The notes under the pieces were generated by a model. That model ran no database searches. It saw only the letters and a program-made list of their open reading frames with translations, and was not told the DNA's origin. A program made the translations under genes and the position numbers. From a virus (taxonomy: Duplodnaviria > Caudoviricetes): DNA of 64,000 nucleotides. The stretch covers positions 3,311-67,310 of IMG/VR virus record IMGVR_UViG_2634166314_000001; one strand, given 5' to 3'. Below are positions 2,548-62,215 of this stretch, in pieces (within the stretch, counting starts at the first letter, position 1; every line of letters begins with the position of its first letter).

Positions 2548-3348
2548 ATGGAATCATATTTTGGAGGCAAAGGATCAGATGGGACATATCAAACTATCAT
2601 TAATCAGATACCAGCTGTGGAAATTTATATCGAAGCCTATGCTGGACATGCAAGTGTTTTTCGAAAAATGATCCGGCCTAACTTAACAATATTAAATGAT
2701 ATTAATCCTAAAGTTTATCAGAAACTTATTGCTCATTTTCCGGAAAGCATCAGTTTTAGTGATGATACGGACCGGAAAGATTTTATCCGGAAGTATCTTG
2801 AAAAAATAAGTAACTCGAGCATCGGAGAAATTAAAAATACTTGCCAAGGAAATAACGATGCCGGATCTATTTTGATAATTGAGTGTCTTGATGCAATTGA
2901 TTTGATAGATAAATACAAGGAATTAATTGAAGTTTTTAATTCGCTGATTTATTCAGACCCACCTTACCCACTCGGATCGAGAAAAAGTCAAGTAAAAAGA
3001 TACGAATTTGAAATGACTGACCAGGATCATGTTAAGTATCTGAAGTATCTGAAAAACATTCGTTGTAAGCAGCTTATTAGTACTTATCCAAATGATATTT
3101 ATGAAGATTTACTACCCCCCCCCTATTTTAATCTGCATGAGTTCTGGTCTCAAACAAGGAAAGGGTTAGCTAAAGAATATTTATACAAAAATTATGAAAC
3201 ACCTACTGAGCTTCAAGATTACAGCTATTTAGGAAGTGATTTCAGGGAGCGAGACAAATTAAAGCGGATTAAAAGAAATTTCCTGAGAAAATTTAAAGAA
3301 ATGCCCCGTCAACTACAAAACTCAATTTTGAAAGAACTACTGTTATGA
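2548..3348 (+). CDS. DNA adenine methyltransferase (Dam-like)
   Basis: YFGGK, EAYAG, NDIN and DPPY motifs; ATG 2548 preferred over 2452. Confidence 0.85.
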   Translation: MESYFGGKGSDGTYQTIINQIPAVEIYIEAYAGHASVFRKMIRPNLTILNDINPKVYQKLIAHFPESISFSDDTDRKDFIRKYLEKISNSSIGEIKNTCQGNNDAGSILIIECLDAIDLIDKYKELIEVFNSLIYSDPPYPLGSRKSQVKRYEFEMTDQDHVKYLKYLKNIRCKQLISTYPNDIYEDLLPPPYFNLHEFWSQTRKGLAKEYLYKNYETPTELQDYSYLGSDFRERDKLKRIKRNFLRKFKEMPRQLQNSILKELLL

Positions 3349-4997
3349 AAACTGTTGCACACTTTGACACTATCGCAAAATTTAAGCCTAATTCAGTTAT
3401 TATAACTAAAAGATGGGTTCAATCTGAACGATCAGAGGAAACAACTCAAAATGAAGTTTCCTTGGCGAATTTGCTAAAAGATGGAGCAAAGTCTGAAAAT
3501 ATGAACGGGTACTTGTCAGAGGCTTCTAAAAGAAATTTAAAGAACCTGGCAGAAAACTTTCTAATGTCGGTTGAGCTTACTACAGGCATGAAGTATGCGA
3601 CTGATTCAACTAAAAAAAACGGAGAAAAATCATTCAGTTTGCTTGCGGATCAGGTAAAAAGGATTTCAGGGGTCGAATATCAACAAAATAATCAGGTGTA
3701 TCCGACTTTCATAACGTTGACTCTCCCATCAAAGCAACTTCATAATGATAACTATATCAAGAACGAGTGTCTCGACCCATTCATAGAATGGCTTAAATCT
3801 GATCGTGAGTACATTACAAGAAAAGGCAAGGGAAAAGGTTTATTGCAGGGGTGTAATGTAAAGGTATATTTGTGGAGAGCTGAAACTCAGAAAAACGGGC
3901 AGTTGCATTTCCATATAATAGTTGATCGGTGGATAGATAAAGATCAGATTCGTTGGCGTTGGAATCAGATAGTCAATCGGCTGGGCTATGTTGACAGATT
4001 TCGTAATGTGCAACTTCATAAATATAGAAACGGTTTCTCATGCACGGTTGAGGAAATAGAGTCGCAGCGCAAAAAGTTACAGGATAAGTTATTTCAGGCT
4101 AATAAGCATAATCAATTGCCGAAAAATATTCATCCGGCCGTTGAACATGAGTTTATCACAGCTTTCAAGTCTGGAAAAAAAGCGTTTTCTGTGAAAAAAT
4201 CTGCTGAATTGGCAAAATGTGTACTTGAGTACAATTACAGAAAGAAAGTTGAGAATAATTTTACCGATCCTCCAAGTACCCAGGTAATCCCAATTCAGAA
4301 TGCAAAGAGTGTAACAGCATATGTTACCAAGTACATTTCAAAGTCTAGTGAGGAAATTGCTCCGAAATTAAATGATAATCAGGAGTTTGTTGCTACTGAG
4401 GAGTTTGGCAAGTTGAAAAAATATATTGTCAATTATCGTTACGAATTATCACTTGATGGTCAGGAGGTGAAGATTGAGACAAGTCGCCAGGAGTATAAAC
4501 CGAGATTTGAAACAAGGAAGGTCACTGGCCGCTTATGGGGACGAAGCGACTCTCTTTTTGGAATTAAAGCTTTTGAAAAAGCGATTTATACTTACAAACT
4601 TGTTGAGGAGCCAGTCTATGAAACCAGGGTTGAAAATAAAAAAATATTTTCCCACACCATAACTGACCTCTGGGGAAATGAGTCGTTGAAATATGAACAT
4701 AGAGATGTATTAGTTACTGATACTCACTATAAGCGACAAGCTTACGGTATTGAGGATAAAGTAAGCTGGAATTATATAGATTGTTTGAAAAATATTATTG
4801 GAAAAGCACAGATCGATGAAGCGACAAATAAAGTAGGCGGAAGTTTCGTCGCCTTCGGTGGACAGGTCATTCCAGTCTATAAAAAAGAAGAGGGTAAGGT
4901 AAAATACCAAAAGCATTTTATGCAGGAAAATGCGCCAGAGCTTTATAATGAGTACTTAAACCACTATGGCGAAATATTCAAGACCCTCTACGCTTGA
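3345..4997 (+). CDS. Rolling-circle replication initiator (HUH endonuclease)
   Basis: Motif I FITLTL, motif II LHFHIIV (preceded by WRAETQKNG), motif III YVTKYISK. Confidence 0.8.
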   Translation: MKTVAHFDTIAKFKPNSVIITKRWVQSERSEETTQNEVSLANLLKDGAKSENMNGYLSEASKRNLKNLAENFLMSVELTTGMKYATDSTKKNGEKSFSLLADQVKRISGVEYQQNNQVYPTFITLTLPSKQLHNDNYIKNECLDPFIEWLKSDREYITRKGKGKGLLQGCNVKVYLWRAETQKNGQLHFHIIVDRWIDKDQIRWRWNQIVNRLGYVDRFRNVQLHKYRNGFSCTVEEIESQRKKLQDKLFQANKHNQLPKNIHPAVEHEFITAFKSGKKAFSVKKSAELAKCVLEYNYRKKVENNFTDPPSTQVIPIQNAKSVTAYVTKYISKSSEEIAPKLNDNQEFVATEEFGKLKKYIVNYRYELSLDGQEVKIETSRQEYKPRFETRKVTGRLWGRSDSLFGIKAFEKAIYTYKLVEEPVYETRVENKKIFSHTITDLWGNESLKYEHRDVLVTDTHYKRQAYGIEDKVSWNYIDCLKNIIGKAQIDEATNKVGGSFVAFGGQVIPVYKKEEGKVKYQKHFMQENAPELYNEYLNHYGEIFKTLYA

Positions 4998-5211
4998 CAA
5001 GTTTGGTACCTGGGAAGTATTGGAGGATGGTAGTCTGTTTGAAACGGCTAACAATTATCATATCACCCCTGATAGGTTCGGTGAATCAGATTGGTGGTCA
5101 TTCTTCAGGACAGACCCAAGCCATAACTGGGGGGATTATATGAAAGCCTTATTTCGTGCATGCGAAGTGGGGAAGATTAAAGAATTAAACATGAAAATGT
5201 CTGACGAATAA
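4966..5211 (+). CDS. hypothetical protein
   Basis: 81-aa ORF overlapping end of Rep. Confidence 0.6.
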   Translation: MAKYSRPSTLDKFGTWEVLEDGSLFETANNYHITPDRFGESDWWSFFRTDPSHNWGDYMKALFRACEVGKIKELNMKMSDE

Positions 5212-6743: not shown

Positions 6744-6924
6744 GTTGCCGTGAACTTACTGTGAACCTCCCGGAAACTGTCAAGCTATTGCGAACGGAAG
6801 TCCGATTCTTTAGCTTTGTTTCACGAAAAAGAGGGTGATATCGGTAGTACAAAGGTCGAATGTTGATGCTAAGATACACCCTTATTCTCATTTTGTCAAT
6901 AGTCACGAAATCCAACGAAATCCG

Positions 6925-7815
6925 ATGAAAAAGAGCAGAAACAACGGAATCCACGCTACAACCTCACCAAAGGTTAGCCAGAAACTTCTTGAAAGAATTA
7001 ACAAGGAGGCTGAGGAGTATGAAGACGGAAAAGCCGGGGTAATTCGGGAAGCCTTAACAGAGTATTTTTTTCCCAATCCAGTCGAGATTTCCATTCCAGG
7101 GCCGGAAATCATCGAAGAAAGAACTTACACAATACAGGGGCTTGTAGGCTTAGACGTTGCTCACGCTTTAAATAGTTTTTCCCATCAAAATAATGTGGGA
7201 ATTGAGGTGGTTTCCGGCAGCATCCTGACGGATTTCGTTAATCAGCGTTGGAAATATAAACAAAATGCTGAGGAACGTATTGACATAGTTGTTTTACCGA
7301 CTGATTTAGCAGAAATCCGTAGATTGTTCGAGTCTGAGCAGGATTCTGTTGCTTATGAAGATTTCCTAACAGATGTTCTCAGGGCAGGGATTTTAGCAAA
7401 GAAATCCGAGAAAAACACTGGATTTCGCATTGATGGACTCAGTCAAGAAACGCCGGACAATTCAATTAAAATCTCCTTCGATGAAATTAATGATGAAGAG
7501 GTGCGGAAATCGTTGCAGGAATCCGGTTTTAATGAAGATCGGTATATGACTATCAAAAAGGAAAGCGAGACCCGTGATAAGTTTTCAAGATTGCTGGATG
7601 AAAAAGTTGAGGAATTAAACAGAAAAGTACGGGCATCTGAAGCTAAGATTCTTCAGTCTGAGGCTTATATTGAGAGTTTCGAGAAATTCAGGTTAGCAAC
7701 TTTAGCTGTCATTAAAAGTTATGCTGAATACTCTTCTTCCTCAATATTTTCAAAACTGAAACGCTTTACTGAGCAGGAAATCGTTTCTAAATATTTTGAT
7801 CAGAAGTTTTTGTAA
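6925..7815 (+). CDS. Protein with N-terminal ribbon-helix-helix-like domain and C-terminal coiled coil
   Basis: SPKVSQKLLERINKEA...KAGVIREALTEYF; ATG 6925 preferred. Confidence 0.55.
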   Translation: MKKSRNNGIHATTSPKVSQKLLERINKEAEEYEDGKAGVIREALTEYFFPNPVEISIPGPEIIEERTYTIQGLVGLDVAHALNSFSHQNNVGIEVVSGSILTDFVNQRWKYKQNAEERIDIVVLPTDLAEIRRLFESEQDSVAYEDFLTDVLRAGILAKKSEKNTGFRIDGLSQETPDNSIKISFDEINDEEVRKSLQESGFNEDRYMTIKKESETRDKFSRLLDEKVEELNRKVRASEAKILQSEAYIESFEKFRLATLAVIKSYAEYSSSSIFSKLKRFTEQEIVSKYFDQKFL

Positions 7816-7827: not shown

Positions 7828-8238
7828 ATGAAGGTACTTGCACTTGTGGAAATAGATCCATTGACTGGAATAATCGTTGAAAAGTTGCCTCATAAAATTT
7901 ACTCTGAAAATTGTTCGGTTGAACGGGCTGACTCTTTCTTCATACAAAGTATTGCATTAAAGAAAGCAAAATCGAATTTGACGGAAATCGAACGAAATCA
8001 GCAAATTCGTTTAACAGCAAATTTCGAAGAAATCGTTAAAATGGGCTTCATACATCACTCGGAATTTGAAAAAGTTATTGAAAAGAAGCTGATCGAAATA
8101 CAGAACCGTATCACACTTAGGTTTTATTACGATTTCTGGATTAAAAAGCCGATTTCAAAGATGCGGTGGAGAATTACTGCAAAAGTGGGCCCGTCTTTGG
8201 TAAAATTCTTAATAAGGTTAAAAAATGGGAAACATTGA
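7828..8238 (+). CDS. hypothetical protein
   Basis: 136-aa ORF in operon. Confidence 0.6.
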   Translation: MKVLALVEIDPLTGIIVEKLPHKIYSENCSVERADSFFIQSIALKKAKSNLTEIERNQQIRLTANFEEIVKMGFIHHSEFEKVIEKKLIEIQNRITLRFYYDFWIKKPISKMRWRITAKVGPSLVKFLIRLKNGKH

Positions 8239-8866
8239 TTTTTTAAGTGATTTCGAAAATGCAGGTAATGATGATTCCTATGGATTATTCAGTACTGAAG
8301 TATCTCAGCCAGCTGAGGAACTATTACCGCACAGGGGTACACCATATCTTGAAAAATCGGGCGATTTCTTGGGAGGATTGTTCAAGACGGTAAATAAGCC
8401 GGAATCAGAATATGAGCCAAAATATTCGAGCGAAGACCTCGAAATTCGTGCTGAATTGATGGTTGATTTGCTAATGACGAAGTTTAATCTGTTTATCGGA
8501 TTGGCTAAAGGCGGAGTTTCGGAACTCGTAGTAAGCGATCAGGATTTGGAAATCTTACGAAATCACCAATTGAATGGATTTCCAGAAAGTGCAGAAACAG
8601 CGGAAATCCGGGAAAGAATTGCTGTTAAGGAAAAGTTGGAGCAAACTCCCCCGTCTGATATGAAGCTAAAGCGGGAAATCTTGAAAAAAGCCGTAAAACT
8701 GGATTTGGAACGAAAAATGAAAGCGGGAAAACTTGAGGAATTGTCAATTGAAAAAATGATACTAATGATGGTTTCCTCTGAGTTCTCTGTTTTGGTAGGG
8801 AAAAATTACGGGGTATTCAGCTCAATCGGAAAAAATCTCATAAAGAAAGCAAAAGGGTTTTTGTAA
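8225..8866 (+). CDS. hypothetical protein upstream of packaging ATPase
   Basis: Acidic N-terminus, amphipathic basic C-terminus. Confidence 0.65.
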   Translation: MGNIDFLSDFENAGNDDSYGLFSTEVSQPAEELLPHRGTPYLEKSGDFLGGLFKTVNKPESEYEPKYSSEDLEIRAELMVDLLMTKFNLFIGLAKGGVSELVVSDQDLEILRNHQLNGFPESAETAEIRERIAVKEKLEQTPPSDMKLKREILKKAVKLDLERKMKAGKLEELSIEKMILMMVSSEFSVLVGKNYGVFSSIGKNLIKKAKGFL

Positions 8867-8867: not shown

Positions 8868-9548
8868 ATGGACGGAAGAGGTAACGTGTGGTATCTGTGC
8901 GGTAAGCGGGGAACAGGGAAATCGTTTGAGGCTCTGGAAATCGCTGCGTTTTTCAGGGAACGTAGAGAATCGCCTAAAAGAACGATTATCCTGGATCACA
9001 CCCAAAACGATGATACTTACGGAGGAATTGATGTAATTCAGATTGATGATCTCAGGTATTTGCTGCCTGGGAGAGCATGCGTAAGAGTACAAACCCAAGA
9101 CTGGTCCCGTTTCTTGGATTTCGCATTCAAAATTAAGAATGCTTCAATCGTGATCGATGATGCTACGGGATTATGGAGGGGTAATGTTCCGGATAAACTT
9201 ATTTCGTTCGTTGGACTTGCAAAAAATCACAGATTAGAGTTAATCATGCAGTTTCACACTATTGCGGATACTGCACCATCGATCTTAAAGAGTTGCAATA
9301 TGTTGGTTATAAAACAAACTAACGACTCGTTTCCAATCAAAAAAAGCGCACCCAATTCGCGCTTAATAGAACGAATGATATTGGATTGTGGGGATGAAAA
9401 TTCGAAATATGATCCTAATCGGAAATGGGCTACAAGGTTGGTGGACATAAATGAAGAGATGGTTTATGTTAAAAATCCGACAGTGTCAAATTTTGCTGAG
9501 TCTTATAAACAAAGGAGAGAGATTTCCGAAATCATAAAAACACTATGA
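8868..9548 (+). CDS. FtsK/HerA-superfamily ATPase, putative genome-packaging ATPase (A32/P9-like)
   Basis: N-terminal Walker A GKRGTGKS, Walker B IVIDDA, AKNHRLELIMQFH; only 226 aa, no nuclease domain. Confidence 0.75.
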   Translation: MDGRGNVWYLCGKRGTGKSFEALEIAAFFRERRESPKRTIILDHTQNDDTYGGIDVIQIDDLRYLLPGRACVRVQTQDWSRFLDFAFKIKNASIVIDDATGLWRGNVPDKLISFVGLAKNHRLELIMQFHTIADTAPSILKSCNMLVIKQTNDSFPIKKSAPNSRLIERMILDCGDENSKYDPNRKWATRLVDINEEMVYVKNPTVSNFAESYKQRREISEIIKTL

Positions 9549-13288: not shown

Positions 13289-13290
13289 TT

Positions 13291-15105: not shown

Positions 15106-15115
15106 ACCTTTGTCA

Positions 15116-15667: not shown

Positions 15668-15669
15668 GT

Positions 15670-54211: not shown

Positions 54212-54229
54212 CCTCTAAACCTAATTAAA

Positions 54230-54628: not shown

Positions 54629-55396
54629 ATGGTTAACATCGGTATCATATCCCAGGTCTCAAGTTTGGACAGATCCACCCTCTTGAAAATAAGAGAAGCC
54701 CTAAACATTCAGGCTGGACAACTCTTAAATTTGAATGGGTACGAAGGACATTATGAGGTATTTGATTCTATTTCCAGTATGCCGGATAATTATTATCCGA
54801 TGTACATCAAAAGCGAAATCGACCAGCCGGAATTAAATGGATACCATTGGGTTGACGAGAAGAATAAGCCATATATAGATGTTCGATACAATAGCGACTT
54901 TGATGCTTTAACCCTTACAATGAGTCATGAAGGAATTGAGACAATTGCGAATCCAAGGGTAGATAAATTTCTGAAAGCAGACAATTTTCTTAACGAACCT
55001 AACTTGCAAGGAGAGTTCTTTTTTGAGATTGCGGATATAACACAAAGTAAGGAATTCGCCTATCGAATTAACGGAATATTAGTATCAAATTTTGTATCAA
55101 ACAATTGGTATGACACAACCAAAGTTACAGGACAAAAATATGATTATCTGGGATATTGTACAGAGCCACGGCAATTGCTTGAAGGTGGTTATAAAAGCCT
55201 AAAGGTTACTGATAAACGTGACCCCAGCATTGTTGAATACTGGCAGGCTTTTAAACAGAAAGGAGTAATTATCTGGAAGAAATTAAACGGAAAAGATGTT
55301 GCTTTAACTGCAATCAGCAATCCGTTTCCCTGGTTAATTGTAACAATTTCAGCCGTTTTTATTTTCCTGTTTTTGATATTTAGAAAAAAATCATAA
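54629..55396 (+). CDS. zincin-like metalloprotein with C-terminal anchor
   Basis: GYH, SHEGIETIANP, EIAD, VSNFV; terminal TM plus RKKS. Confidence 0.6.
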   Translation: MVNIGIISQVSSLDRSTLLKIREALNIQAGQLLNLNGYEGHYEVFDSISSMPDNYYPMYIKSEIDQPELNGYHWVDEKNKPYIDVRYNSDFDALTLTMSHEGIETIANPRVDKFLKADNFLNEPNLQGEFFFEIADITQSKEFAYRINGILVSNFVSNNWYDTTKVTGQKYDYLGYCTEPRQLLEGGYKSLKVTDKRDPSIVEYWQAFKQKGVIIWKKLNGKDVALTAISNPFPWLIVTISAVFIFLFLIFRKKS

Positions 55397-55410: not shown

Positions 55411-55629
55411 ATGAAAAAGACAAAATCGGCTCCTAAAAAAGCATCTAAGCCAAAAAAGAAAGTGGTAAAATCAGGTTTAACTCCTGCTCAGAAACGAATC
55501 AAAAGAATCAGTCAGGTTGCTACTGAGATTCAAAAGTCAGGCGGAAAGACAACGAAAAAAGTAACTGTATCAAAGTTTAAAGTAAGTCGTGTCGAGGCGG
55601 TAAAAAGAGCCGCAAAACAGGTTAAGTGA
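55411..55629 (+). CDS. highly basic histone-like protein
   Basis: K/R-rich 72 aa. Confidence 0.65.
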   Translation: MKKTKSAPKKASKPKKKVVKSGLTPAQKRIKRISQVATEIQKSGGKTTKKVTVSKFKVSRVEAVKRAAKQVK

Positions 55630-56015
55630 TGCTTTTAATTGCTCGGCTCAATTCTGAAATTACCCTCAAGCGGTGGAAGTTTCTACTACTCCGTTTGGGG
55701 GCAATAGCATTTTTACTTGGTTGTTTTGGTTTCTGGATGTACTATAGACAGGCAGATTTTCGAATTGCTCAGATGCAAACTGAAAATGATTATCTGACAA
55801 AGGTGCTGAGAGATAATCAGGGAAAGCGATCTGCATTACAGAAATCATTTGCAGAGGCAATTAAGAAAGGTTTAAATACTAATGCTGAAATAGAAAATAA
55901 AGATGCTGCAGATCAGAAATATCTTGAAAGTAATAGCCTGGATCGTACTGATTCTGCCAGAGACGCTCTATGGCAAAAGTATTACGGCAGCAGACTCTAC
56001 AGCCAGAAAAGATAG
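55626..56015 (+). CDS. membrane-anchored coiled-coil protein (spanin-like)
   Basis: N-terminal TM then coiled coil. Confidence 0.5.
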   Translation: MMLLIARLNSEITLKRWKFLLLRLGAIAFLLGCFGFWMYYRQADFRIAQMQTENDYLTKVLRDNQGKRSALQKSFAEAIKKGLNTNAEIENKDAADQKYLESNSLDRTDSARDALWQKYYGSRLYSQKR

Positions 56016-56355
56016 TTTAGAGATTCAGGAACCATTGTTCTTAGTCAGAAAGTCACAGATTGACTTGGCGATTAATAATAAGATCGCTCTGGATTCTCTT
56101 AGGATCAGATTTGAATTATTGAAGCTGAGTTCGAAAGTAAGTCTGGAAAAAGCAAAAGTGATAGGTTCTCAGATATTTCAGATTTGTGATGACGATATGA
56201 AGACAGCCGGGATTATAATTGCAAATGATAAAAAGATCAGAAAACGGCTCAATCTTAAGTTAGTATTGCAATATATCAAAGCACCTCTGCTCGGTGCTGG
56301 TTTATTTTACCTCGGAAATATAGCAGCACAAAAAGGCTTAATTATAAAGTTATGA
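55903..56355 (+). CDS. spanin-like partner
   Basis: Overlaps previous gene; signal-like N-terminus and C-terminal hydrophobic segment. Confidence 0.5.
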   Translation: MLQIRNILKVIAWIVLILPETLYGKSITAADSTARKDSLEIQEPLFLVRKSQIDLAINNKIALDSLRIRFELLKLSSKVSLEKAKVIGSQIFQICDDDMKTAGIIIANDKKIRKRLNLKLVLQYIKAPLLGAGLFYLGNIAAQKGLIIKL

Positions 56356-56537
56356 ACATATTCTCGTCAATTTTAGGGGCAATATTCGGTACTTCGGACA
56401 ATAGTTCTGAGGAATTGGGGGCTTTGAAGCAACAAGTATCGGCCTTAACCAAGTCAGTAAAAACTTTCAAAATCATTAGTGCGGTTTTGGGAATTGGTTT
56501 CCTAACTACCCTGATCTTATATCTGAGAAAGAAATGA
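56352..56537 (+). CDS. small C-terminally anchored protein
   Basis: IISAVLGIGFLTTLILYLRKK. Confidence 0.65.
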   Translation: MNIFSSILGAIFGTSDNSSEELGALKQQVSALTKSVKTFKIISAVLGIGFLTTLILYLRKK

Positions 56538-56899
56538 AAATACTTAAAACCATATTCGTATTGGCAATAATCGGGGGAATTTCTGCTCTGATCTATAAAT
56601 TCCGTATCGAACTTGGAATTGAGGATAGCACCGATCAAGCTGCTACAACTCCTGAAAACCTTACTGCTAATATTCAGCCGGAATTGATTTCTGACTCTCA
56701 ATCGTTGGTAAATTATACAGACCGCCAGTTAGCTACTGCCGCTATAGCATTAGCTATAAAAAATCAGCCTGTTTCCACTAATACGATAAGTTTTTACGAT
56801 CCCAATAATGTTAAAGAAGGTTGGAATTACGTTCCGGGCGAGGGCCTTTACTATCGACAAGGCAAAGATTTGCTATTTATCCACTCAACATTACAATAA
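56534..56899 (+). CDS. N-terminally anchored membrane protein
   Basis: IFVLAIIGGISALIY. Confidence 0.65.
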   Translation: MKILKTIFVLAIIGGISALIYKFRIELGIEDSTDQAATTPENLTANIQPELISDSQSLVNYTDRQLATAAIALAIKNQPVSTNTISFYDPNNVKEGWNYVPGEGLYYRQGKDLLFIHSTLQ

Positions 56900-56904: not shown

Positions 56905-58941
56905 ATGACTCTGACCAAGACTCAACAATTTGTTCAGGATGCTGTTAAGCCATCAAATTTCAATGGTCTGATTAAACAGGGTACGATTGCTCAATTGCGT
57001 AGTATGTCCCCTGTTTCATCAGATTTGTCTGTTCTGTATGAAAGTACGGACATGGGTGGCGGAAAGTGGACTCCTGATTTTGCTGATACAACATCGCTTG
57101 ACAATACTGGAGGAATTTTAGTCTGTGCAAATGGCGTTAGACTAAAACGCCAATTTGGTGGCAGAGCGGCTAATGTTGTTTCGTATGGAGCGATAGGGGA
57201 TGGCGTAGCAGATGACACAGCTGCAATTCAAAGGGCATTGGATAATCATAGAGTTGTTTTTTTTCCAAAGCCGAAGTGGCGATATAAGGTTACGGCATCG
57301 CTTAAAATTAACAACTACACAATGGTGTATGGGGAACAATGTTTCCTTGATCAAAATACACTAAATAATCAAACGATCTTCTATTCTGGTACAGGATATT
57401 TATTTACAACTCCTGCAAGTGATCCTGGTTCCGGTGTATGTATTCAGTTGAGAAATCTTTCGATTGAGGGTAACAATTCTACCAATGTTGCGCTGAATTC
57501 TGCTATACAGAGATTATCCGTTAAGAACTGTCTTTTCAGGCATTTTGATGCTGGAATTGACTTTACTGCATATGCAGTTAGCGACGTCGTTGAAACTGTA
57601 ATTGATGAATGCTATTTTATTGAGTGCAATACAGGTATGAGAAGTTCGAGCACATCAGGCAGACACACTACCGACGGTATTCTGAAAAATTGCTTCTTTG
57701 TTAAATGTGTAACTGGGATAAATCTTGATACGGCGGCGGGGTGGCTAATCACAGGAAATCATTTCTATGGACTTGGAGTCAGCCAACAGCATATTGTAAT
57801 CTCAGGGTATTTACTTAAAATCCTCGGAAATTACATAGAGCCAGCTGATCAACGAGGGATTGTCTACAAAATGACAGAAGGGAACGGCGTTTGTAACACC
57901 ATTATTGCTGACAATCAAATCATGGTAAAGTCTGGCGAAGTAGGTATTACATTGATGTCGCTTGTAGGTGAGGCTGACGGCTTAATCGTCGCTGACAACA
58001 TGATTAATTCCGGCACAGGTATGACAACAGGAAGTACGGGGATTAAAGTCGAAGGGCAATACCGGGTATATGGAACATTGCTCAATAACGACATTAATAA
58101 TGTCGAGGTTGAAGTCGATACCGGAACGCTTGGAAGTATTAGGTATGCAGGGTTTTCGCATAACTATTATAAGTTTAGAGGAAGCAATGGTATTGAACTT
58201 TCGAACGGTGTAAGGTTGAGTGAATATTTTGGAAAGCCAACACCAGCGCAACCGTATGGAAGTCAAGGGTATGTATATAATCAGGCTTCTGGGAGTGTAA
58301 GAGATATTGGCGGATGGGAATATCGGGCTGACCTTTCAACCGGATGGAAAAAAGTAGTTTCGTTAGACTCAGAAATGTTAGACAGTAGCACTATGCCGAC
58401 CACAGGCAATTTTAATGCTGGTGTAACTGTTTGGAATGATAATCCAATGCTATACACTACATATGGTGTTAATTATTCTATTCTTGGTTGGAAGCGATTA
58501 ACGTCAGGTTCTAGTCATGCTTTGGGAGTCGACTGGTATGCAATTCGTTCAATTGACCCCACAGGAGTAATTGCCGTTCAAACACTTAGTGATTTAAACG
58601 GATTAGGAAAAGAGGGTTGGTTCAAAACAACAGCAGGTCCAGCTAATGCACCTGCCGGATCGTCCCCAACAGCATTTTTTCAGGGTGTGCAATTTCTTAG
58701 CAACGGACAGTCGGATTATATAAACCAGCTTGTTTTCGATACCAGTGGAAACGAATATAAACGAACGAAATCTGGTGGCGTATGGGGAAGTTGGTATAAG
58801 GTTTCTTCAAGACTTGAAGGTAGTACTGCTCAAAGAAATGCAATAGTTTCACCACAGGAAGGGCAAGACTATTATAATACCGAAACACATGCAAAGGAAT
58901 TTTGGAACGGAACCGTTTGGAAAACGATCACTACTAATTAA
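56905..58941 (+). CDS. beta-helix (pectate-lyase-like) spike / receptor-binding depolymerase
   Basis: YGAIGDGVADDTAAIQRA, parallel beta-helix repeats, fibre-like C-terminal modules. Confidence 0.85.
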   Translation: MTLTKTQQFVQDAVKPSNFNGLIKQGTIAQLRSMSPVSSDLSVLYESTDMGGGKWTPDFADTTSLDNTGGILVCANGVRLKRQFGGRAANVVSYGAIGDGVADDTAAIQRALDNHRVVFFPKPKWRYKVTASLKINNYTMVYGEQCFLDQNTLNNQTIFYSGTGYLFTTPASDPGSGVCIQLRNLSIEGNNSTNVALNSAIQRLSVKNCLFRHFDAGIDFTAYAVSDVVETVIDECYFIECNTGMRSSSTSGRHTTDGILKNCFFVKCVTGINLDTAAGWLITGNHFYGLGVSQQHIVISGYLLKILGNYIEPADQRGIVYKMTEGNGVCNTIIADNQIMVKSGEVGITLMSLVGEADGLIVADNMINSGTGMTTGSTGIKVEGQYRVYGTLLNNDINNVEVEVDTGTLGSIRYAGFSHNYYKFRGSNGIELSNGVRLSEYFGKPTPAQPYGSQGYVYNQASGSVRDIGGWEYRADLSTGWKKVVSLDSEMLDSSTMPTTGNFNAGVTVWNDNPMLYTTYGVNYSILGWKRLTSGSSHALGVDWYAIRSIDPTGVIAVQTLSDLNGLGKEGWFKTTAGPANAPAGSSPTAFFQGVQFLSNGQSDYINQLVFDTSGNEYKRTKSGGVWGSWYKVSSRLEGSTAQRNAIVSPQEGQDYYNTETHAKEFWNGTVWKTITTN

Positions 58942-58946: not shown

Positions 58947-60209
58947 ATGCTAAACCTCACATATCCTACAAAACCGATCATTTACCAAAGGAATAATTCG
59001 GGCTTTGCGCTTGTAAAATTCTCAGGATTATCTGATACTGCAGTAACTGTAAAATTTTCGGCTTTGGAAAATTCTGGAACTGATTTTTCTATTACTCTTC
59101 CAGTAAATAATGCCGAATTTAAAGCTAATGTGAAAGTCCCTCAGGGACTCTATCAGGTTGTTGTTACCAATAAATCAGAATCGAAAAAATTGGAATACTT
59201 AGGGGTCGGTGAAGTGATCGTTTGGAGTGGACATAGTTTCGCAGATGGTTACGGCATTGGTTCGGATACCTCTCCCCTGGCATTTTTTACGGAAAATTTC
59301 TGGAAAAGAAATGATCCGGATCAGTATAAAAAACCGGAAGAGGTACAAAGGTATTTGGACAATATCAGGCAAGAAACGGCAAGGGGATTACCTGCCAGAG
59401 TTGCAAGCCAAATGGCAGAAAAGTTGATGGTTCCAGTTCTGTTTTATCATTGTGCTTGGGGCGGAACCCGCATGATGGATTGGGCAGACGCAGCTTCAGG
59501 AATTAAAACCGGACGGGAATATGCCGGGTATAAACAAGGATATGAAGATTTAGGCTATCCCTACGCTATACTTGGAGAAGCTCTTAAGACTTTTGTACAA
59601 GAAACCGGTTGCAGGGGAGTTTTGATTATTCATGGAGATAATGACAGAGATAAGCAGTTTACTCAAAACATTTTACTTGATGGCTGGAAAAGATTGATTA
59701 ACAAAATTAGAGTTGATGCAAATTTTAACTTGCCTGTTTCATTGGCACGAAGTTGTATTGATCCTAATTTCCCTGAAATCATTGCTTCTACCAATCAGGC
59801 TATTGAGCAGCTGCCGAGTATGTATTATGGCCCTGACTTATCTCAGATGGGAGCTTCATACCGAATTTCGGACGGATTACACTTGAATGATTTGGGGGAA
59901 ATCAAAGTAGCTCAGGATTGGACAAGTATGCTGATTTCTCAGAATTTCTTCGCATCTAATCCTAAACCGACTCCAACGTTCACTGAAATCACTAAGATTG
60001 TGCAGACGACGGCCGCTCAAATAAAGGACGAGGCGAATACTTCTGTAGCTGCAATCGTTATAGGACTTGCTTTTATTACAATTTTGGCAATTTCTTTGAT
60101 TGCTAAATTTCGTTGGTTTTTGGCATTAGTATTTACGCTGTTGGTTGCCGGAATTTCATACTTAATCGGGTTTACGAATCTGTTTGGTATTAAGAAATCC
60201 GGTTCCTGA
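58947..60209 (+). CDS. SGNH / sialate O-acetylesterase-like protein with C-terminal TM hairpin
   Basis: GVGEV...GHS, AWGGT, HGDND, DGLH. Confidence 0.75.
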   Translation: MLNLTYPTKPIIYQRNNSGFALVKFSGLSDTAVTVKFSALENSGTDFSITLPVNNAEFKANVKVPQGLYQVVVTNKSESKKLEYLGVGEVIVWSGHSFADGYGIGSDTSPLAFFTENFWKRNDPDQYKKPEEVQRYLDNIRQETARGLPARVASQMAEKLMVPVLFYHCAWGGTRMMDWADAASGIKTGREYAGYKQGYEDLGYPYAILGEALKTFVQETGCRGVLIIHGDNDRDKQFTQNILLDGWKRLINKIRVDANFNLPVSLARSCIDPNFPEIIASTNQAIEQLPSMYYGPDLSQMGASYRISDGLHLNDLGEIKVAQDWTSMLISQNFFASNPKPTPTFTEITKIVQTTAAQIKDEANTSVAAIVIGLAFITILAISLIAKFRWFLALVFTLLVAGISYLIGFTNLFGIKKSGS

Positions 60210-60339
60210 TCGTATCAAATTAAAATGCGATGCGATATCGCATCTGAATATATTTTGTTACGGCCCGGATCGACTTATTTTACGATGTCGGCCGGAATCT
60301 AAGAAAAGTTCGATCCTGGATCTTATCAGCCAAAAGTAT

Positions 60340-60822
60340 ATGAAACATTTTTTTCAAAAACCGGATGCAAGTGATTTAATCGAGATGCCATCGTTCAACA
60401 AGTTGAGGACATTCTCTCGAATTTGTAAGGCGATTCCGAAAGCTGTTTCTGAGAGTGAAAAGTTATCTGTTAAATTTCAAGGAAAACCTCTGAAATCCAC
60501 TCTGTTTTCAATCTATAAATTTTGTCGTGAAAATATAAATTACAGAGAAGATACTCCTGGAATCGAGCAAATAAGACTACCAAATCAAACTTGGTTTGAT
60601 CGGAAAAAGGGTGTTGATTGTGAAGATTTCGCGATATTTTGTTCCTCAATTTTAGTCAATCTTCAGATACCTCATCGGGTATGTATGATTGATTTTGGTG
60701 AAGGATGGCAGCATATTTTAATTATCGTCCATACAATGAGTTGTGATTTTATCTTGGACCCAGTCAACGAAAAATTCAATAAGATTAAAAGGTTTAAACG
60801 GATTAAGTATCAGTCATTTTAG
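60340..60822 (+). CDS. transglutaminase-like (Cys-His-Asp) protein
   Basis: YREDTPGIEQIRLP, GVDCEDF, WQHI, ILDPV; frame open from 60184. Confidence 0.8.
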   Translation: MKHFFQKPDASDLIEMPSFNKLRTFSRICKAIPKAVSESEKLSVKFQGKPLKSTLFSIYKFCRENINYREDTPGIEQIRLPNQTWFDRKKGVDCEDFAIFCSSILVNLQIPHRVCMIDFGEGWQHILIIVHTMSCDFILDPVNEKFNKIKRFKRIKYQSF

Positions 60823-60832
60823 CAGTAAAAAC

Positions 60833-62215
60833 ATGGAATATTACGGAATTGAAAGTTATTCAGCAACTCAGGTAAAGAAACTTGGGTTGGATAATAAGTC
60901 TGGACTGGGTAAAATTGTTTCAACCGGAACAAAAAACTCAATATATGATATTATCACTGATCGAATTATTGAGATTATTCAAAATAATGACAATCTCGTT
61001 TGGCGACAATCATGGACTACAAACAAAGAGGGGCAACCGAACTTTCCTATGAACTATACTTCAAAGGAAAATTATAAGGGCTTCAATGGTTATTTTATCA
61101 AATGGCAAATGGTTGCCCTCAAACATGATTGCCCATATTTTATGACTTACAAGCAGGTTTTCGAGAAAGGTGGAAATGTAAAAAAAGGTGCCAAGGCATA
61201 CACAGCATGTTTTTACACGAAAGATTTATACAGACATTTGCAGACCGGAAAGACGATTACTGCCAGTAAGTATAAGGAATTATCACATGCCGAAAAGGCG
61301 AATTACCATCAGTCATTCACTCTAAAGGTTTACAATATCTTTAACGCCAATGATATAGAAGGAGTTAAGTTTGACGATAGATGGAAGGGGGTTGCAGTAT
61401 CAAAAAAGGATCAAATCACTAATTGTGAGAAAATTTATACAAAAATGCCAAACAAGCCGAAGTTGTACTTCGGTGGCGATAAGGCGTACTATACTCCTAA
61501 CTTCGATTCTGTACAAATGCCAGTAATAAAGGATTTTAATGTTCCACAGGAATATTACTCAACCCTTTTTCATGAGTTGATCCATTCAACAGGGTATTCA
61601 GAACGATTAAATCGAAAATTCGGAAAAGGAATGAGTGATCCTCAGTATGCTTTTGAGGAATTAATCGCAGAGTTAGGTGCCTCGTATCTATGTGGGTATA
61701 CTCACATAGATTATTTCACACTTAATAATTCTGCAGCATATATTAAAAGTTGGAAAAAATCAGTAATTGAAGAACTCCGGGGTAATAATAAAGCAATATT
61801 CAAAGCTGCGTCAGAGGCACAGAAGGCATCTGATTACATTCTCGGAAAATTGGACAAGGAAATCTACAGGAAATTTAAAGGGAAGATTGAAACGCCAAAA
61901 ATCGGAGATAAGTCTCGTCCTGTTCTCTCTAAAAGCTTCAAATTAAGAGAAGAGAAGGAAAAACTAAAAGGAGATATTTCAAAGCTAACGAGAAAAGTCA
62001 AGGATAATGCGAAGTTTAAAGAAAAGCTGGCTTTTGAATTAGATAAATATCTAAAATCGCTAAATGGGTTGTCCGGGTTAGATTCTGAATTAACGAGTTT
62101 GAAAGCAAAGAAAAAATTCTTGACAAATTTATTGAGAGGTGATAATGAAGACTTTAAGGTAATTGGTAGAAGGGTTGGTTTGAGTTATCGGACGACTTCT
62201 ATCAGGAAAAAGTAG
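60833..62215 (+). CDS. ardC: ArdC-like antirestriction/ssDNA-binding protein with zincin domain
   Basis: ITDRII, WRQSW, YKGFN, MTYKQ, KKGAK, AYY.P..D.VQMP, TLFHELIH, YAFEELIAELG. Confidence 0.85.
   Translation: MEYYGIESYSATQVKKLGLDNKSGLGKIVSTGTKNSIYDIITDRIIEIIQNNDNLVWRQSWTTNKEGQPNFPMNYTSKENYKGFNGYFIKWQMVALKHDCPYFMTYKQVFEKGGNVKKGAKAYTACFYTKDLYRHLQTGKTITASKYKELSHAEKANYHQSFTLKVYNIFNANDIEGVKFDDRWKGVAVSKKDQITNCEKIYTKMPNKPKLYFGGDKAYYTPNFDSVQMPVIKDFNVPQEYYSTLFHELIHSTGYSERLNRKFGKGMSDPQYAFEELIAELGASYLCGYTHIDYFTLNNSAAYIKSWKKSVIEELRGNNKAIFKAASEAQKASDYILGKLDKEIYRKFKGKIETPKIGDKSRPVLSKSFKLREEKEKLKGDISKLTRKVKDNAKFKEKLAFELDKYLKSLNGLSGLDSELTSLKAKKKFLTNLLRGDNEDFKVIGRRVGLSYRTTSIRKK

What the first reader, a model, noticed from the sequence alone, without database searches (positions are those of the whole stretch)
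3345..62215. Outer element looks like a large tailless, lipid-containing temperate virus of Bacteroidetes
Seen: after removing 12699-49612, at least 27 kb of mostly co-oriented genes remain with no recognisable terminase, portal, HK97 capsid or tail. They include an HUH Rep (3345), a 226-aa FtsK/HerA-type ATPase (8868), many small membrane proteins, lytic enzymes, a beta-helix spike, a transglutaminase-like protein, ArdC and an integrase. Known: a short A32/P9-type ATPase with many membrane proteins and a spike typifies internal-membrane viruses (PRD1, PM2, Bam35), and PM2 replicates by rolling circle. Inference: this is a provirus of a poorly described membrane virus lineage, much larger than PM2 (~10 kb).
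Basis: partly seen in the sequence, partly recalled or inferred. Interest (0 to 1): 0.92.

Follow-up and report, generated by a model that had tools for sequence, protein, structure and literature searches.

The report
Tailless membrane-virus-like provirus, Bacteroidota
A 32-kb element inserted in a tRNA gene of a Bacteroidota bacterium, itself split by a Mu-like phage, carries the DNA-packaging motor and entry enzymes typical of tailless, lipid-containing viruses, but its coat protein has not been firmly identified.

Summary
The outer element is a discrete 31.8-kb integrative unit at tRNA-Lys, bounded by a 15-bp direct repeat (window -4543 to 64199). A 36.9-kb Mu-like prophage splits one of its conserved genes. 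An uninterrupted 38-kb sister copy sits at tRNA-Thr on another contig. The ATPase family occurs in 32 of 301 genomes of the host family.

None of 41 ORFs matches a terminase, portal, HK97 capsid, tail tube or sheath, T4SS or relaxase family. The 226-aa ATPase profile hits only viral packaging ATPases: STIV2 B204 (E 6.5e-7), P23-77 (hhalign 92%), PRD1 P9 and PM2 P9 (about 60%). Host FtsK, MuB and DnaB controls score under 4%. A membrane-anchored transglycosylase is 36% identical to the virion lytic enzyme of Flavobacterium phage FLiP.

The weak point is the capsid. There is no double-jelly-roll-sized ORF. The 177-aa protein models as a generic jelly-roll sandwich (best Z 5.8, phiCjT23 capsid, tied with lectins), and the 163-aa neighbour is not a jelly roll.

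Most likely (about 0.6) this is a provirus of an undescribed tailless, membrane-containing virus lineage. The scan has noted other tailless proviruses in other Bacteroidota genomes, but found no sequence look-alikes of this one.

The parts
2..967 (+). PAPS-reductase-domain protein (early region). P23-77 and SSIP-1 carry the same domain.
   Evidence: Pfam PF01507 1.9e-28. The family HMM hits P23-77 ORF3 at 8.6e-6.
2452..3348 (+). D12-class N6-adenine DNA methyltransferase
   Evidence: Pfam PF02086 2.9e-7. 76% identical in the C16 copy.
3345..4997 (+). HUH rolling-circle Rep, 550 aa (M13 gpII / ORF2 type)
   Evidence: Pfam PF23343 2.2e-8. phrog_3419 1.2e-4. Motifs FITLTLP 122, HFH 188, YVTKY 326. 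dN/dS 0.03.
6835..7815 (+). 326-aa helical, charged protein with a weak RHH motif. Probably a regulator or DNA-binding protein, not a capsid protein.
   Evidence: Sequence. RHH_1 0.003, below the cut-off.
8225..8866 (+). 213-aa acidic helical protein, always immediately upstream of the ATPase (candidate packaging accessory)
   Evidence: Family found in 10 of 11 related loci, adjacent to the ATPase.
8868..9548 (+). 226-aa P-loop ATPase of the viral genome-packaging type (PRD1 P9 / PM2 P9 / P23-77 ORF13 / STIV2 B204)
   Evidence: Profile A1 against PDB hits only B204, at 6.5e-7 over the full length. hhalign gives P23-77 91-93%, PRD1 P9 58-62%, PM2 P9 58-77%; controls score under 4%.
9545..9799 (+). 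84-aa protein with an N-terminal TM helix, directly after the ATPase
   Evidence: Hydropathy. Same position as P23-77 ORF14 and PRD1 gpi/P20.
10220..10753 (+). 177-aa all-beta protein, a predicted jelly-roll-type sandwich. Best capsid or penton candidate.
   Evidence: AF2 pLDDT 67, pTM 0.69. VIA top hit phiCjT23 capsid, Z 5.8, tied with lectins and STMV. Foldseek best E 0.03.
10789..11280 (+). 163-aa mixed alpha/beta protein with two C-terminal helices. No known fold, not a jelly roll.
   Evidence: AF2 pLDDT 78. No fold match. Only 15 representatives among 1.84 billion.
11341..11880 (+). 179-aa protein: N-terminal domain, Thr/Gly-rich linker, C-terminal TM anchor. The N-domain is paralogous to early gene 1325-1792.
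   Evidence: Alignment A4. Hydropathy.
11949..12635 (+). 228-aa protein with an SH3b-like wall-binding domain and a C-terminal TM anchor
   Evidence: NCBIfam EntD/EntC wall-binding models 5.6e-7, domain level. Hydropathy.
12634..12698 (+). 5' part of a conserved 159-aa N-terminally anchored membrane-protein gene, cut by the Mu-like insertion
   Evidence: The uninterrupted orthologue at C16:312095-312574 reads straight through the junction.
12699..49608 (.). Nested Mu-like transposable prophage (a separate element), flanked by TATG
   Evidence: Portal_Mu 9e-74, rve transposase, MuB-like AAA. Junctions.
49613..50028 (+). 3' part of the split 159-aa gene
   Evidence: Family found in 9 of 11 related loci.
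50189..50935 (+). 248-aa coiled-coil protein with three TM segments
   Evidence: Hydropathy. 88% identical in the C16 copy.
50851..51483 (+). 210-aa protein with no family match.
   Evidence: No Pfam or PHROG hit. dN/dS 0.08.
51480..52160 (+). Lytic transglycosylase with a C-terminal membrane anchor. Orthologue of the FLiP virion lytic enzyme, PRD1 P7-like.
   Evidence: Family HMM against FLiP 2.8e-37 and PRD1 P7 3.5e-5. BLASTP 36% identity over 137 aa, 4e-18. 190 phage records against 11 plasmid records.
52157..52630 (+). Permuted papain-like (NlpC/P60, YaeF-type) enzyme
   Evidence: NCBIfam NF008552 1.1e-4, below the cut-off. phrog_1128 5.6e-20.
52892..53611 (+). Soluble SLT-domain transglycosylase
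   Evidence: Pfam SLT 1.1e-9. PRD1 P7 1.5e-5.
53624..55396 (+). Three membrane proteins (195, 132 and 255 aa). Two are C-terminally anchored.
   Evidence: Hydropathy. Families conserved in related loci.
55626..56899 (+). Three small proteins (129, 150 and 121 aa) with N-terminal TM or signal segments
   Evidence: Hydropathy.
56905..58941 (+). Right-handed beta-helix protein (tailspike or depolymerase type): candidate receptor-binding spike
   Evidence: Pfam PF12708 1.7e-13. PHROG tailspike, tail-fibre and EPS-depolymerase families down to 6e-13.
58947..60209 (+). 420-aa protein with weak SASA/SGNH-esterase similarity and two C-terminal TM helices
   Evidence: Pfam SASA 0.0038, below the cut-off. 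Hydropathy.
60184..60822 (+). Transglutaminase-like (papain-fold) protein
   Evidence: Pfam DUF553 4.9e-7. SSIP-1 structural gp34 at 1.6e-5, BLASTP 2e-8. Fused to a methylase in relatives.
60743..62215 (+). ArdC-N plus zincin metallopeptidase (anti-restriction type)
   Evidence: Pfam PF18818 2.7e-32, PF08401 3.5e-20.
62741..64000 (-). Tyrosine integrase next to attR / tRNA-Lys
   Evidence: Pfam Phage_int_SAM_5 1.6e-10. tRNA-Lys at window 64185-64258 and the direct repeat.

Best explanation
The outer element is the provirus of an undescribed lineage of temperate, tailless, lipid-containing viruses of Bacteroidota. It has 31.8 kb of its own DNA; its intact sister copy is 38 kb.

Shown:
- It is a discrete integrative unit at a tRNA gene, with its own integrase, att repeats and a cI-type HTH gene at the far end.
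- It encodes a rolling-circle Rep.
- Its short ATPase belongs to the genome-packaging ATPases known from membrane-containing icosahedral viruses.
- It carries a virion-type, membrane-anchored transglycosylase orthologous to that of phage FLiP, further wall hydrolases, a tailspike-type beta-helix and about 14 membrane proteins.

Inferred life cycle:
- After induction the circle replicates by rolling circle, as PM2 does.
- Tail-anchored viral proteins are inserted into the cytoplasmic membrane.
- A shell built from small proteins (177-aa jelly-roll candidate, helped by the 163-aa and 179-aa proteins) pinches off a lipid vesicle.
- The ATPase, with its conserved 213-aa partner, pumps dsDNA in through a vertex.
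- The beta-helix and esterase recognise and cut surface polysaccharide.
- The anchored transglycosylase opens the wall at entry.
- ArdC and the transglutaminase-like protein protect incoming DNA from restriction.

The window's copy is probably disabled, because the Mu-like phage has split a conserved gene.
For: ATPase:
- Profile of 17 family members against all PDB sequences gives only STIV2 B204, at 6.5e-7 and 3.4e-6 over the full length. The next hit is at 0.16.
- hhalign gives P23-77 ATPase 91-93% (up to 194 columns), PRD1 P9 58-62% (188 columns) and PM2 P9 58-77%. That compares with 0.3% for host FtsK, 3.8% for MuB-like, 0.4% for DnaB, and at most 16% for 28 non-ATPase virion proteins.
- Neither ATPase copy matches PF01580. 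Nothing in the genome passes the cut-off for PF12846, the VirB4-type family.

Gene order: partner, ATPase, small TM protein, small structural-size proteins, membrane proteins, lysins and spike. This parallels P23-77, PRD1 and PM2.

Links to virion proteins:
- SLT-TM against the FLiP structural lytic enzyme, 2.8e-37 and 36% identity, same length and C-terminal anchor.
- The SLT type occurs in 190 phage records against 11 plasmid records.
- The transglutaminase-like domain matches SSIP-1 structural gp34.
- The beta-helix matches tailspike and depolymerase PHROGs.
- 10220 models as a jelly-roll sandwich whose top hit among 48,161 chains is the phiCjT23 capsid protein.

No tailed-phage or conjugation families among the 41 ORFs.

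Mobility and spread: tRNA insertion, repeats and integrase in both copies. The ATPase family is in 32 of 301 genomes and 12 of 51 genera. Genes are under purifying selection.
Against: - No capsid protein is established. No soluble beta-rich ORF has double-jelly-roll size.
- The 10220 model has pLDDT 67. Its best Z of 5.8 is tied with concanavalin-type lectins at 5.5 and lies below the tool's own trust level of 8. Foldseek against PDB and BFVD gave nothing at E <= 0.001.
- 10789 is not a jelly roll in its model.
- Profiles of 10220, 10789 and 11341 find nothing in PDB or in known capsid proteins by sequence.
- No relative was found in IMG/VR with the patterns used, or among 50,697 phage records with the ATPase.
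- ArdC and the large methylase/helicase proteins of relatives also occur on conjugative elements (abstract of PMC5512222 seen in listing).
- The ATPase has a weak PHROG hit labelled terminase large subunit (6.7e-4).
- No particle, expression or excision data exist.
Confidence: 0.6

Rival explanations
1. It is a non-viral integrative element that moves by an unrecognised route. For example, DNA could be translocated by the small ATPase through a membrane and wall-hydrolase complex, loosely analogous to actinomycete AICEs that combine an integrase, a rolling-circle Rep and an FtsK-like translocase. Alternatively it could be mobilised by another element.
For: The element combines a rolling-circle Rep, integrase, ArdC, several wall hydrolases and many membrane proteins. 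Relatives carry large methylase and Strawberry-notch-type helicase proteins, which are also common on conjugative elements. No capsid protein is proven.
Against: - No relaxase, coupling protein, VirB4/TraG or any Bacteroidota Tra family among the 41 ORFs. There is no PF12846 match above the cut-off anywhere in the genome.
- The ATPase has no TM segment. It matches viral packaging ATPases and not FtsK.
- A tailspike-type beta-helix and a FLiP-type virion lysin have no obvious role in conjugation.
Confidence: 0.17
2. It is a virus, but one without an icosahedral protein shell. The virion would be a pleomorphic or vesicle-like lipid particle, in the manner of plasmaviruses or pleolipoviruses, in which membrane-anchored proteins and spikes decorate a vesicle.
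For: There are about 14 membrane proteins, six of them C-terminally anchored, and no convincing major capsid protein. Rolling-circle Rep plus an NTPase plus spike and membrane proteins is also the pleolipovirus gene set (my recollection, not from a call).
Against: The ATPase is specifically like those that fill preformed icosahedral capsids. The anchored proteins lack N-terminal signal peptides. Their soluble domains would therefore face the cytoplasm, as expected for an internal membrane and not for an outer envelope (inference). The wall hydrolases imply lysis or wall penetration rather than budding alone.
Confidence: 0.12
3. It is a decayed tailed prophage or a phage satellite that borrows the capsid of a helper, for instance the Mu-like phage inside it.
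For: It hosts a complete tailed phage. Domain-level PHROG hits fall in the 'tail' category, and the ATPase has a weak hit labelled terminase.
Against: - Two copies share the same full gene set under purifying selection, and the intact copy has no tailed phage inside.
- The architecture is conserved across genera.
- No ORF is large enough to be a portal or large terminase apart from annotated non-structural proteins.
- At 32-38 kb with its own lysins and spike, it is unlike known satellites.
Confidence: 0.04
4. It is an unusually large filamentous (inovirus-like) prophage.
For: The Rep is of the gpII/ORF2 type, there are many small membrane proteins, and it has an integrase.
Against: Pfam reports no Zot/pI-type family at E <= 0.01, and the ATPase has no TM segment. 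There are four wall hydrolases and a depolymerase-type spike, which extruding phages do not need. The size is about twice or more that of known inoviruses (my recollection).
Confidence: 0.02

Closest known systems
Thermus phages P23-77 / IN93 (Matshushitaviridae; Helvetiavirae). Record GQ403789 read.
   Same: This is the best ATPase match among phages (hhalign 91-93%). The local order is the same: ATPase, small ORF, then 140-290-aa structural proteins, then small membrane proteins. Both have a PAPS-reductase gene in the early region (8.6e-6), a replication protein, endolysins and a transglycosylase. IN93 is temperate (my recollection).
   Different: The host is a mesophilic Bacteroidota bacterium and the genome is about twice as large. 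No sequence or clear fold match to VP16 or VP17 was found (neither appears in the top 50). Only one jelly-roll candidate was seen instead of two, and the 163-aa neighbour is not a jelly roll. It adds a beta-helix spike, an esterase and ArdC.
Flavobacterium phages FLiP (Finnlakeviridae) and phiCjT23. MF361639 read; PMC9719478 abstract and sections 6 and 12 read.
   Same: The host phylum is the same. The membrane-anchored virion lytic transglycosylase is orthologous (36% identity). The Rep is of the M13/gpII-like rolling-circle type (PMC5894146 passages). The top structural hit of 10220 is the phiCjT23 capsid protein. phiCjT23 is temperate.
   Different: Those phages have 7.6-9.2-kb ssDNA genomes and a double-jelly-roll capsid protein. 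FLiP lacks a packaging ATPase (PMC5894146 passage). phiCjT23-like prophages integrate through XerC/D at dif (PMC9719478 section 6). This element is 32-38 kb, has a packaging ATPase, uses a tyrosine integrase at tRNA genes, and has no double-jelly-roll-sized ORF.
PM2 (Corticoviridae) and PRD1 (Tectiviridae). AF155037 and AY848689 read.
   Same: The packaging ATPase is P9-type (hhalign about 60-77%). The SLT matches PRD1 P7 (1.5e-5 to 3.5e-5). The ATPase lies next to structural genes. PM2's P12 is annotated as a replication initiation protein with a mapped cleavage site. There are many small virion membrane proteins.
   Different: No match to P2 or P3 capsid proteins or to pentons. The genome is 2-3 times larger. 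It integrates at tRNA with an integrase, and its spike is of tailspike type.
Salisaeta icosahedral phage 1 (SSIP-1, JN880423, read)
   Same: It is a large (43.8 kb, circular) genome with no taxonomy below 'Viruses' in its record. It is a tailless, membrane-containing phage of a Bacteroidota-related host (titles and abstracts in the listing; details recalled). Its structural protein gp34 shares the transglutaminase-like domain, and a PAPS-reductase-like ORF matches at 0.0068.
   Different: The ATPase profile found no SSIP-1 match. No other family matched.
Polyvalent-protein / ArdC anti-restriction modules of phages and conjugative elements (PMC5512222, title and abstract seen in the listing)
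   Same: ArdC-N plus MPTase-PolyVal, next to a papain-fold or transglutaminase-like protein. In relatives that domain is fused to a methylase and followed by a Strawberry-notch-type helicase.
   Different: Here the domains are separate small genes at the end of the late operon. Delivery with the DNA is inferred, not tested.

Membership tests
Membrane-containing icosahedral viruses with a double-jelly-roll capsid (Bamfordvirae: PRD1, PM2, FLiP type) | [quoted passage not shown] | tested here: inconclusive
   No unassigned soluble ORF of 250-400 aa. 10220 models as one jelly-roll-like sandwich aligned to the first half of the phiCjT23 capsid protein at Z 5.8, rmsd 3.2, 98 residues, tied with lectins. 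Only 2 of the late proteins could be folded.
Membrane-containing icosahedral viruses with a double-jelly-roll capsid (Bamfordvirae: PRD1, PM2, FLiP type) | FtsK/HerA-superfamily (A32/P9-type) genome-packaging ATPase | tested here: met
   PDB profile search: only STIV2 B204, 6.5e-7. hhalign to PRD1 P9 58-62% over 188 columns and PM2 P9 58-77%. Controls under 4%.
Membrane-containing icosahedral viruses with a double-jelly-roll capsid (Bamfordvirae: PRD1, PM2, FLiP type) | Lipid membrane with virus-encoded membrane proteins inside the capsid | not testable with these tools
   About 14 predicted membrane proteins, six of them C-terminally anchored without signal peptides. This is compatible with the feature, but a virion membrane needs particles.
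Helvetiavirae-type viruses (P23-77, IN93, SH1) | Two vertical single-jelly-roll major capsid proteins encoded next to the packaging ATPase | tested here: inconclusive
   One jelly-roll-like candidate (10220). 10789 is mixed alpha/beta in a pLDDT-78 model. 11341 was not folded by me, and the Atlas model has pLDDT 0.44. No sequence match to VP16 or VP17.
Helvetiavirae-type viruses (P23-77, IN93, SH1) | Packaging ATPase related to P23-77 ORF13 | tested here: met
   hhalign 91-93%, E 4e-7 to 9e-7, up to 194 columns.
Finnlakeviridae / phiCjT23-like phages | Small (7-9 kb) circular ssDNA genome without a packaging ATPase | tested here: not met
   The element is 31.8 kb (38 kb for the sister copy) and encodes a packaging-type ATPase.
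Finnlakeviridae / phiCjT23-like phages | M13-like rolling-circle Rep and a virion lytic transglycosylase | tested here: met
   PF23343 2.2e-8. FLiP lytic enzyme 2.8e-37, 36% identity.
Conjugative or mobilisable elements (ICE / CTn) | T4SS ATPase (VirB4/TraG), coupling protein, relaxase | tested here: not met
   None among the 41 ORFs in Pfam or in the extra genes of the C16 copy. PF12846 has no match above the cut-off in the whole genome. The flanks hold host genes.
Tailed prophage (Caudoviricetes) | Large terminase, portal, HK97-fold capsid protein, tail genes | tested here: not met
   No such Pfam or PHROG family in the outer element. These genes occur only in the nested Mu-like insert.
Inoviridae-like filamentous prophage | Zot/pI-type assembly ATPase with a TM segment; genome of 5-15 kb | tested here: not met
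   No Zot family at E <= 0.01, and no TM segment in the ATPase. The element is 31.8 kb.

The most novel reading that the evidence does not exclude
These elements may be a new family-or-higher lineage of temperate internal-membrane viruses of Bacteroidota. Their shell would be built from a small single-jelly-roll protein resembling one half of the minimal phiCjT23/FLiP capsid protein, together with non-jelly-roll partners, instead of a fused double jelly roll. They would combine a P23-77/PRD1-type packaging motor with a FLiP-type Rep and entry enzyme in a 32-38 kb dsDNA genome. That would make them a living intermediate between the single- and double-jelly-roll virus lineages.
Probability: 0.25. 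Interest if true: 0.88.

Novelty: new variant of a known kind. Interest (0 to 1): 0.64.

Why it matters
Tailless lipid-containing phages are badly under-sampled, because detection pipelines key on tailed-phage hallmarks or on known double-jelly-roll capsid proteins.

This family would escape both routes:
- The ATPase family has only 22 clusters among 5.8 billion. All are unnamed or carry uninformative names, and none has a Pfam domain.
- Most late genes match no Pfam, PHROG or NCBIfam family.
- Yet the ATPase occurs in about one genome in ten of a Bacteroidota family.

If particles are confirmed, this would add a large-genome temperate lineage to the membrane-containing viruses. It would provide a mesophilic bacterial host system for them. 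It might also bear on how single- and double-jelly-roll capsids are related.

The pair of co-resident copies, one intact and one knocked out by a transposable phage, is a ready-made genetic comparison.

Tried and rejected
Negative or uninformative searches:
- The 326-aa ORF 6835-7815 as a capsid protein was rejected. It is helical, charged and has a weak RHH motif.
- Sequence profiles of 10220, 10789 and 11341 against PDB gave nothing below E 0.1.
- hhalign of these families against 31 chosen virion proteins of PRD1, PM2, FLiP, P23-77 and SSIP-1 gave at most 2.5%.
- Foldseek of the 10789 model against PDB, and VIA wide, matched only its C-terminal helices.
- Foldseek of the 10220 model against BFVD gave nothing at E <= 0.001.
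- ESM Atlas models of 10220 and 11341 have pLDDT 0.45 and 0.44 and gave no usable neighbours.
- IMG/VR scans with the ATPase alone and with the seven-member alignment A7 gave no confirmed relative. The genome-contig scan with A7 gave none. These scans depend on short degenerate patterns and are weak negatives.
- tblastn of the ATPase against 50,697 phage records gave no match.
- NCBIfam on 10 proteins gave only domain-level hits, for 11949 and 52157.

Checks that could not be done:
- Sequencing runs: only one DNA holder, probably the source assembly, kept as contigs. No RNA holder is listed. Read laying was not used, so there are no data on excision, copy number or expression.
- Empty-site check: the 1.1-kb left flank was not found in 25 relatives, one per genus, so insertion polymorphism could not be shown.
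- Two of 26 gene pairs in the dN/dS script were dropped because I gave the wrong frame for the C16 side. Seven more had saturated dS.
- An all-against-all hhalign run timed out. I replaced it with the 31-target run.
- Supplementary files of the papers were not opened. Supplementary lists of proviruses in PMC5894146 and PMC9502842 might include relatives of this element.
- Searches behind 'not described'. These were title and abstract listings, with passages of PMC5894146 and PMC9502842 and sections 6 and 12 of PMC9719478. None describes a 30-40 kb Bacteroidota provirus with this ATPase.

Full report
**What is there**

The window is G000:C27:565886-629885 of a 6.17-Mb, 38% G+C genome. The genome has 51 SusD-family matches. 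The control for that search rings only in Bacteroides thetaiotaomicron, so the host is a Bacteroidota bacterium.

ORFs on the + strand fill 1-12635 and 49639-62215. Between them lies a block of higher G+C with mixed orientation. That block is a Mu-like transposable prophage, with Portal_Mu 9e-74, a 708-aa rve transposase and a MuB-like AAA protein.

Aligning its junctions to an uninterrupted sister locus shows that 12699-49608 was inserted with a 4-bp duplication (TATG). The insertion lies inside a 159-aa gene for an N-terminally anchored membrane protein, and the two halves rejoin perfectly in frame.

**Limits of the outer element**

The integrase (62741-64000, minus strand) faces the 3' end of a tRNA-Lys(ttt), 185 bases beyond the window. 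The first 15 bases of that tRNA end recur once in the 123 kb searched upstream of it, at L001:15457, which is 4543 bases left of the window.

The element therefore spans 68.7 kb with the insert and 31.8 kb without it. The extra left part holds a divergently oriented Cro/cI-type HTH gene (21.7 bits, just under the cut-off), two unknown genes and a C5 cytosine methylase.

The 15 kb upstream and the 5.7 kb scanned downstream hold host genes (10 ORFs scanned). These include AraC regulators, Abi_2, a cysteine desulfurase with a type 2A encapsulin, a short-chain dehydrogenase, a tRNA methyltransferase and DnaB.

**A second copy and a family**

tblastn of 41 outer-element proteins against the whole genome found a collinear copy at C16, roughly 291-326 kb. 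It has counterparts for 33 of them, at 33-94% amino-acid identity, and no Mu-like insert.

That copy is bounded by a 13-bp repeat of the 3' end of tRNA-Thr (C16:289337 and 327430), giving 38.1 kb. It has a different tyrosine integrase, a serine resolvase and extra cargo: a 626-aa C5 methylase, and a ResIII/DEAD helicase next to a weak TIR_2 match that falls below the cut-off.

dN/dS between the copies is 0.02-0.31 for the 17 genes with unsaturated dS, out of 26 pairs attempted. The block from 6835 to 11880 is only 39-61% identical, while both flanks are 81-94% identical. The two co-resident elements are therefore mosaics with different core modules.

The ATPase finds relatives in 32 of 301 genomes of the same bacterial family, counting this one, and in 12 of 51 genera. 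I fetched ten of these loci, plus the C16 copy. Iterative HMM searches show a conserved late module:
- the 213-aa partner protein, then the ATPase, then small TM proteins;
- the 10220, 10789 and 11341 families, in the closer relatives only;
- the SH3b-TM protein and the 159-aa gene that Mu split here;
- the anchored SLT and a papain-like hydrolase;
- several C-terminally anchored proteins, the beta-helix, the esterase-like protein and the transglutaminase-like domain.

Replication and lysogeny genes differ between loci.

**What it is not**

Pfam was run on all 41 ORFs, PHROGs on 20 and NCBIfam on 10. None matched a terminase, portal, HK97 capsid, tail tube, sheath or tape measure, T4SS component, coupling protein or relaxase family.

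The only proteins over 300 aa are the PAPS reductase, Rep, the RHH protein, the beta-helix, the esterase-like protein, ArdC, the integrase and the C5 methylase. That leaves no room for hidden portal or terminase genes. The whole genome has no match above the cut-off to the VirB4-type family PF12846, and its single FtsK_SpoIIIE match is the host FtsK.

**The ATPase**

Pfam, PHROGs and NCBIfam do not recognise it, apart from two weak hits below any cut-off. Public protein sets hold 22 clusters of it, all unnamed or uninformatively named, and none with a Pfam domain.

A profile of 17 members searched against every PDB sequence returns two significant hits. Both are the genome-packaging NTPase B204 of Sulfolobus turreted icosahedral virus 2 (6.5e-7 and 3.4e-6), aligned end to end. 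The next hit is at 0.16.

hhalign scores:
- P23-77 packaging ATPase: 91-93%.
- PRD1 P9: 58-62% over 188 columns.
- PM2 P9: 58-77%.
- Host FtsK motor 0.3%, MuB-like protein 3.8%, DnaB 0.4%.
- 28 non-ATPase virion proteins: at most 16%.

**Other links to membrane-containing phages**

- The 226-aa transglycosylase with a C-terminal TM helix matches the 221-aa 'structural protein, putative lytic enzyme' of Flavobacterium phage FLiP. The family HMM gives 2.8e-37, with 36% identity over 137 residues, and the FLiP protein also ends in a hydrophobic helix.
- It also matches PRD1 P7 (3.5e-5), as does the second SLT protein (1.5e-5).
- This SLT type is found in 190 of 50,697 phage records, often as a baseplate-hub or tail domain. 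It is found in only 11 of 72,556 plasmid records.
- The transglutaminase-like domain matches structural protein gp34 of Salisaeta icosahedral phage 1 (1.6e-5; BLASTP 2e-8).
- The PAPS-reductase gene has a counterpart in P23-77 (8.6e-6).
- The beta-helix matches tailspike, tail-fibre and EPS-depolymerase PHROGs.
- The Rep belongs to PF23343, the gpII/ORF2 type. Yutin et al. describe an M13-like Rep for the FLiP group (PMC5894146, passages read).
- The local gene order parallels P23-77 (ORF13 ATPase, ORF14, VP15, VP16, VP17), PRD1 (P9, gpi, P20, P3) and PM2 (P9, P7, P2).

**The capsid problem**

I had two structure predictions.

The 163-aa protein (20-sequence alignment, pLDDT 78) is mixed alpha/beta with two C-terminal helices. 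It has no fold match.

The 177-aa protein (13 sequences, pLDDT 67, pTM 0.69) is an all-beta sandwich with one helix. In the search of 48,161 representative chains, its top hit is the capsid protein of the lipid-containing Flavobacterium phage phiCjT23 (7zzz_J: Z 5.8, rmsd 3.2, 98 residues, first half of the chain). The top 50 also holds STMV, a PR772 chain, SPV1, STIV and other viral jelly rolls, mixed with lectins and carbohydrate-binding modules. The second-look search puts concanavalin A at Z 5.5. By the tool's own guidance, differences under 1 are ties and Z under 8 may reflect only a common arrangement.

So 10220 is a jelly-roll-type sandwich. That fits a capsid or penton role but does not prove one. 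No ORF has the size of a double jelly roll. Sequence profiles of the three proteins find nothing in PDB or in known capsid proteins.

**Reading**

The packaging motor, the FLiP-type anchored entry enzyme, the tailspike-type spike and about 14 membrane proteins all point one way. Six of those membrane proteins are tail-anchored without signal peptides. Lysogeny genes are present, and conjugation and tailed-phage machinery are absent. Together these make a temperate, tailless, lipid-containing virus the best explanation, at about 0.6.

A non-viral integrative element with an unknown transfer route stays open at about 0.17. ArdC and the large methylase/helicase proteins of relatives are at home on conjugative elements, and no capsid is proven. 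A capsid-less pleomorphic virus (about 0.12), a satellite or decayed tailed prophage (about 0.04) and an inovirus (about 0.02) fit less well.

I read the transglutaminase-like protein plus ArdC as an anti-restriction module of the 'polyvalent protein' kind rather than a maturation protease. In relatives the same domain is fused to an N6 methylase and followed by a Strawberry-notch-type helicase (PMC5512222 title and abstract in the listing).

The window's copy is probably defective, because Mu split a gene conserved in 9 of the 11 related loci.

**Novelty**

Six literature searches found no description of such elements. Capsid-based censuses (PMC5894146, PMC9502842) would not have detected them. 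I could not see their supplements.

The scan's own notes list other tailless proviruses in Bacteroidota, in a Saprospiraceae genome and a Bacteroidales genome. No stored stretch resembles this ATPase.

I rate it a new variant of a known kind. It has a known type of packaging motor and entry apparatus. The genome is three times the size of PM2, integrates at tRNA genes, and has an unidentified and possibly unconventional shell.

Noticed in passing
L001:9161-12023 (minus strand), 3.4-6.3 kb left of the element's attL: Host operon of a 650-aa cysteine desulfurase (Aminotran_5, 4e-148) next to a type 2A encapsulin shell protein (SrpI-like, 6e-108). An Abi_2 gene lies at L001:3376-4305. These are outside the element and unrelated to it.
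   Followed up: no
G000:C16:289337-327442 (L035-L037): The intact sister element sits at tRNA-Thr, with a different integrase and a serine resolvase. Its cargo, absent from the window copy, is a 626-aa C5 methylase and a 747-aa ResIII/DEAD helicase followed by a 269-aa protein with a weak TIR_2 match (1.2e-4, below the cut-off). This may be a defence or counter-defence cassette.
   Followed up: partly
window 6835-11880 against C16:306141-311338: Between the two co-resident copies, the block holding the RHH protein, the ATPase partner, the ATPase and the three small late proteins is only 39-61% identical in protein. Both flanking modules are 81-94% identical. This is a mosaic pattern, and it may allow two related elements to coexist.
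   Followed up: partly
window 1325-1792 and 11341-11880: The N-terminal domain of the membrane-anchored 179-aa late protein has a soluble paralogue among the early genes (28-32% identity; invariant W, H-S, G and DG-G positions).
   Followed up: no
L043:6910-17545 (G265) and L028:7950-15946 (G190): In more distant relatives the transglutaminase-like domain is the N-terminus of a 1015-aa protein with a weak N6-methylase match (0.0082, below the cut-off). It is followed by a 1325-1353-aa Strawberry-notch-type helicase and, in G265, a 937-aa methylase. This is a polyvalent-protein-like block at the place where the window has a 212-aa protein plus ArdC.
   Followed up: partly
L015-L017 (G108:C6:225001-285000): One relative carries two copies of the ATPase module 17 kb apart in opposite orientation, with separate sets of the 10220, 10789 and 11341 families. 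These may be two adjacent or nested elements.
   Followed up: no
window 12695-12728 and 49582-49612: The Mu-like insert is flanked by a 4-bp (TATG) duplication rather than a clean 5-bp one. Its ends start ATTA, and it carries the inner inverted repeat CGAGATATTAAAAT 16 bases in from each end.
   Followed up: partly
phage record PQ408900.1, positions 7157-7558 (hit H1): The most identical phage match (42.8%) of the anchored transglycosylase is in an unannotated 18.2-kb 'Erwinia phage AnSW2-5-P-A' record. That size is unusual for a tailed phage.
   Followed up: no
L002:185-403 (window 64185-64403): Two tandem tRNA-Lys(ttt) genes lie 72 bases apart. The element sits at the first one.
   Followed up: no
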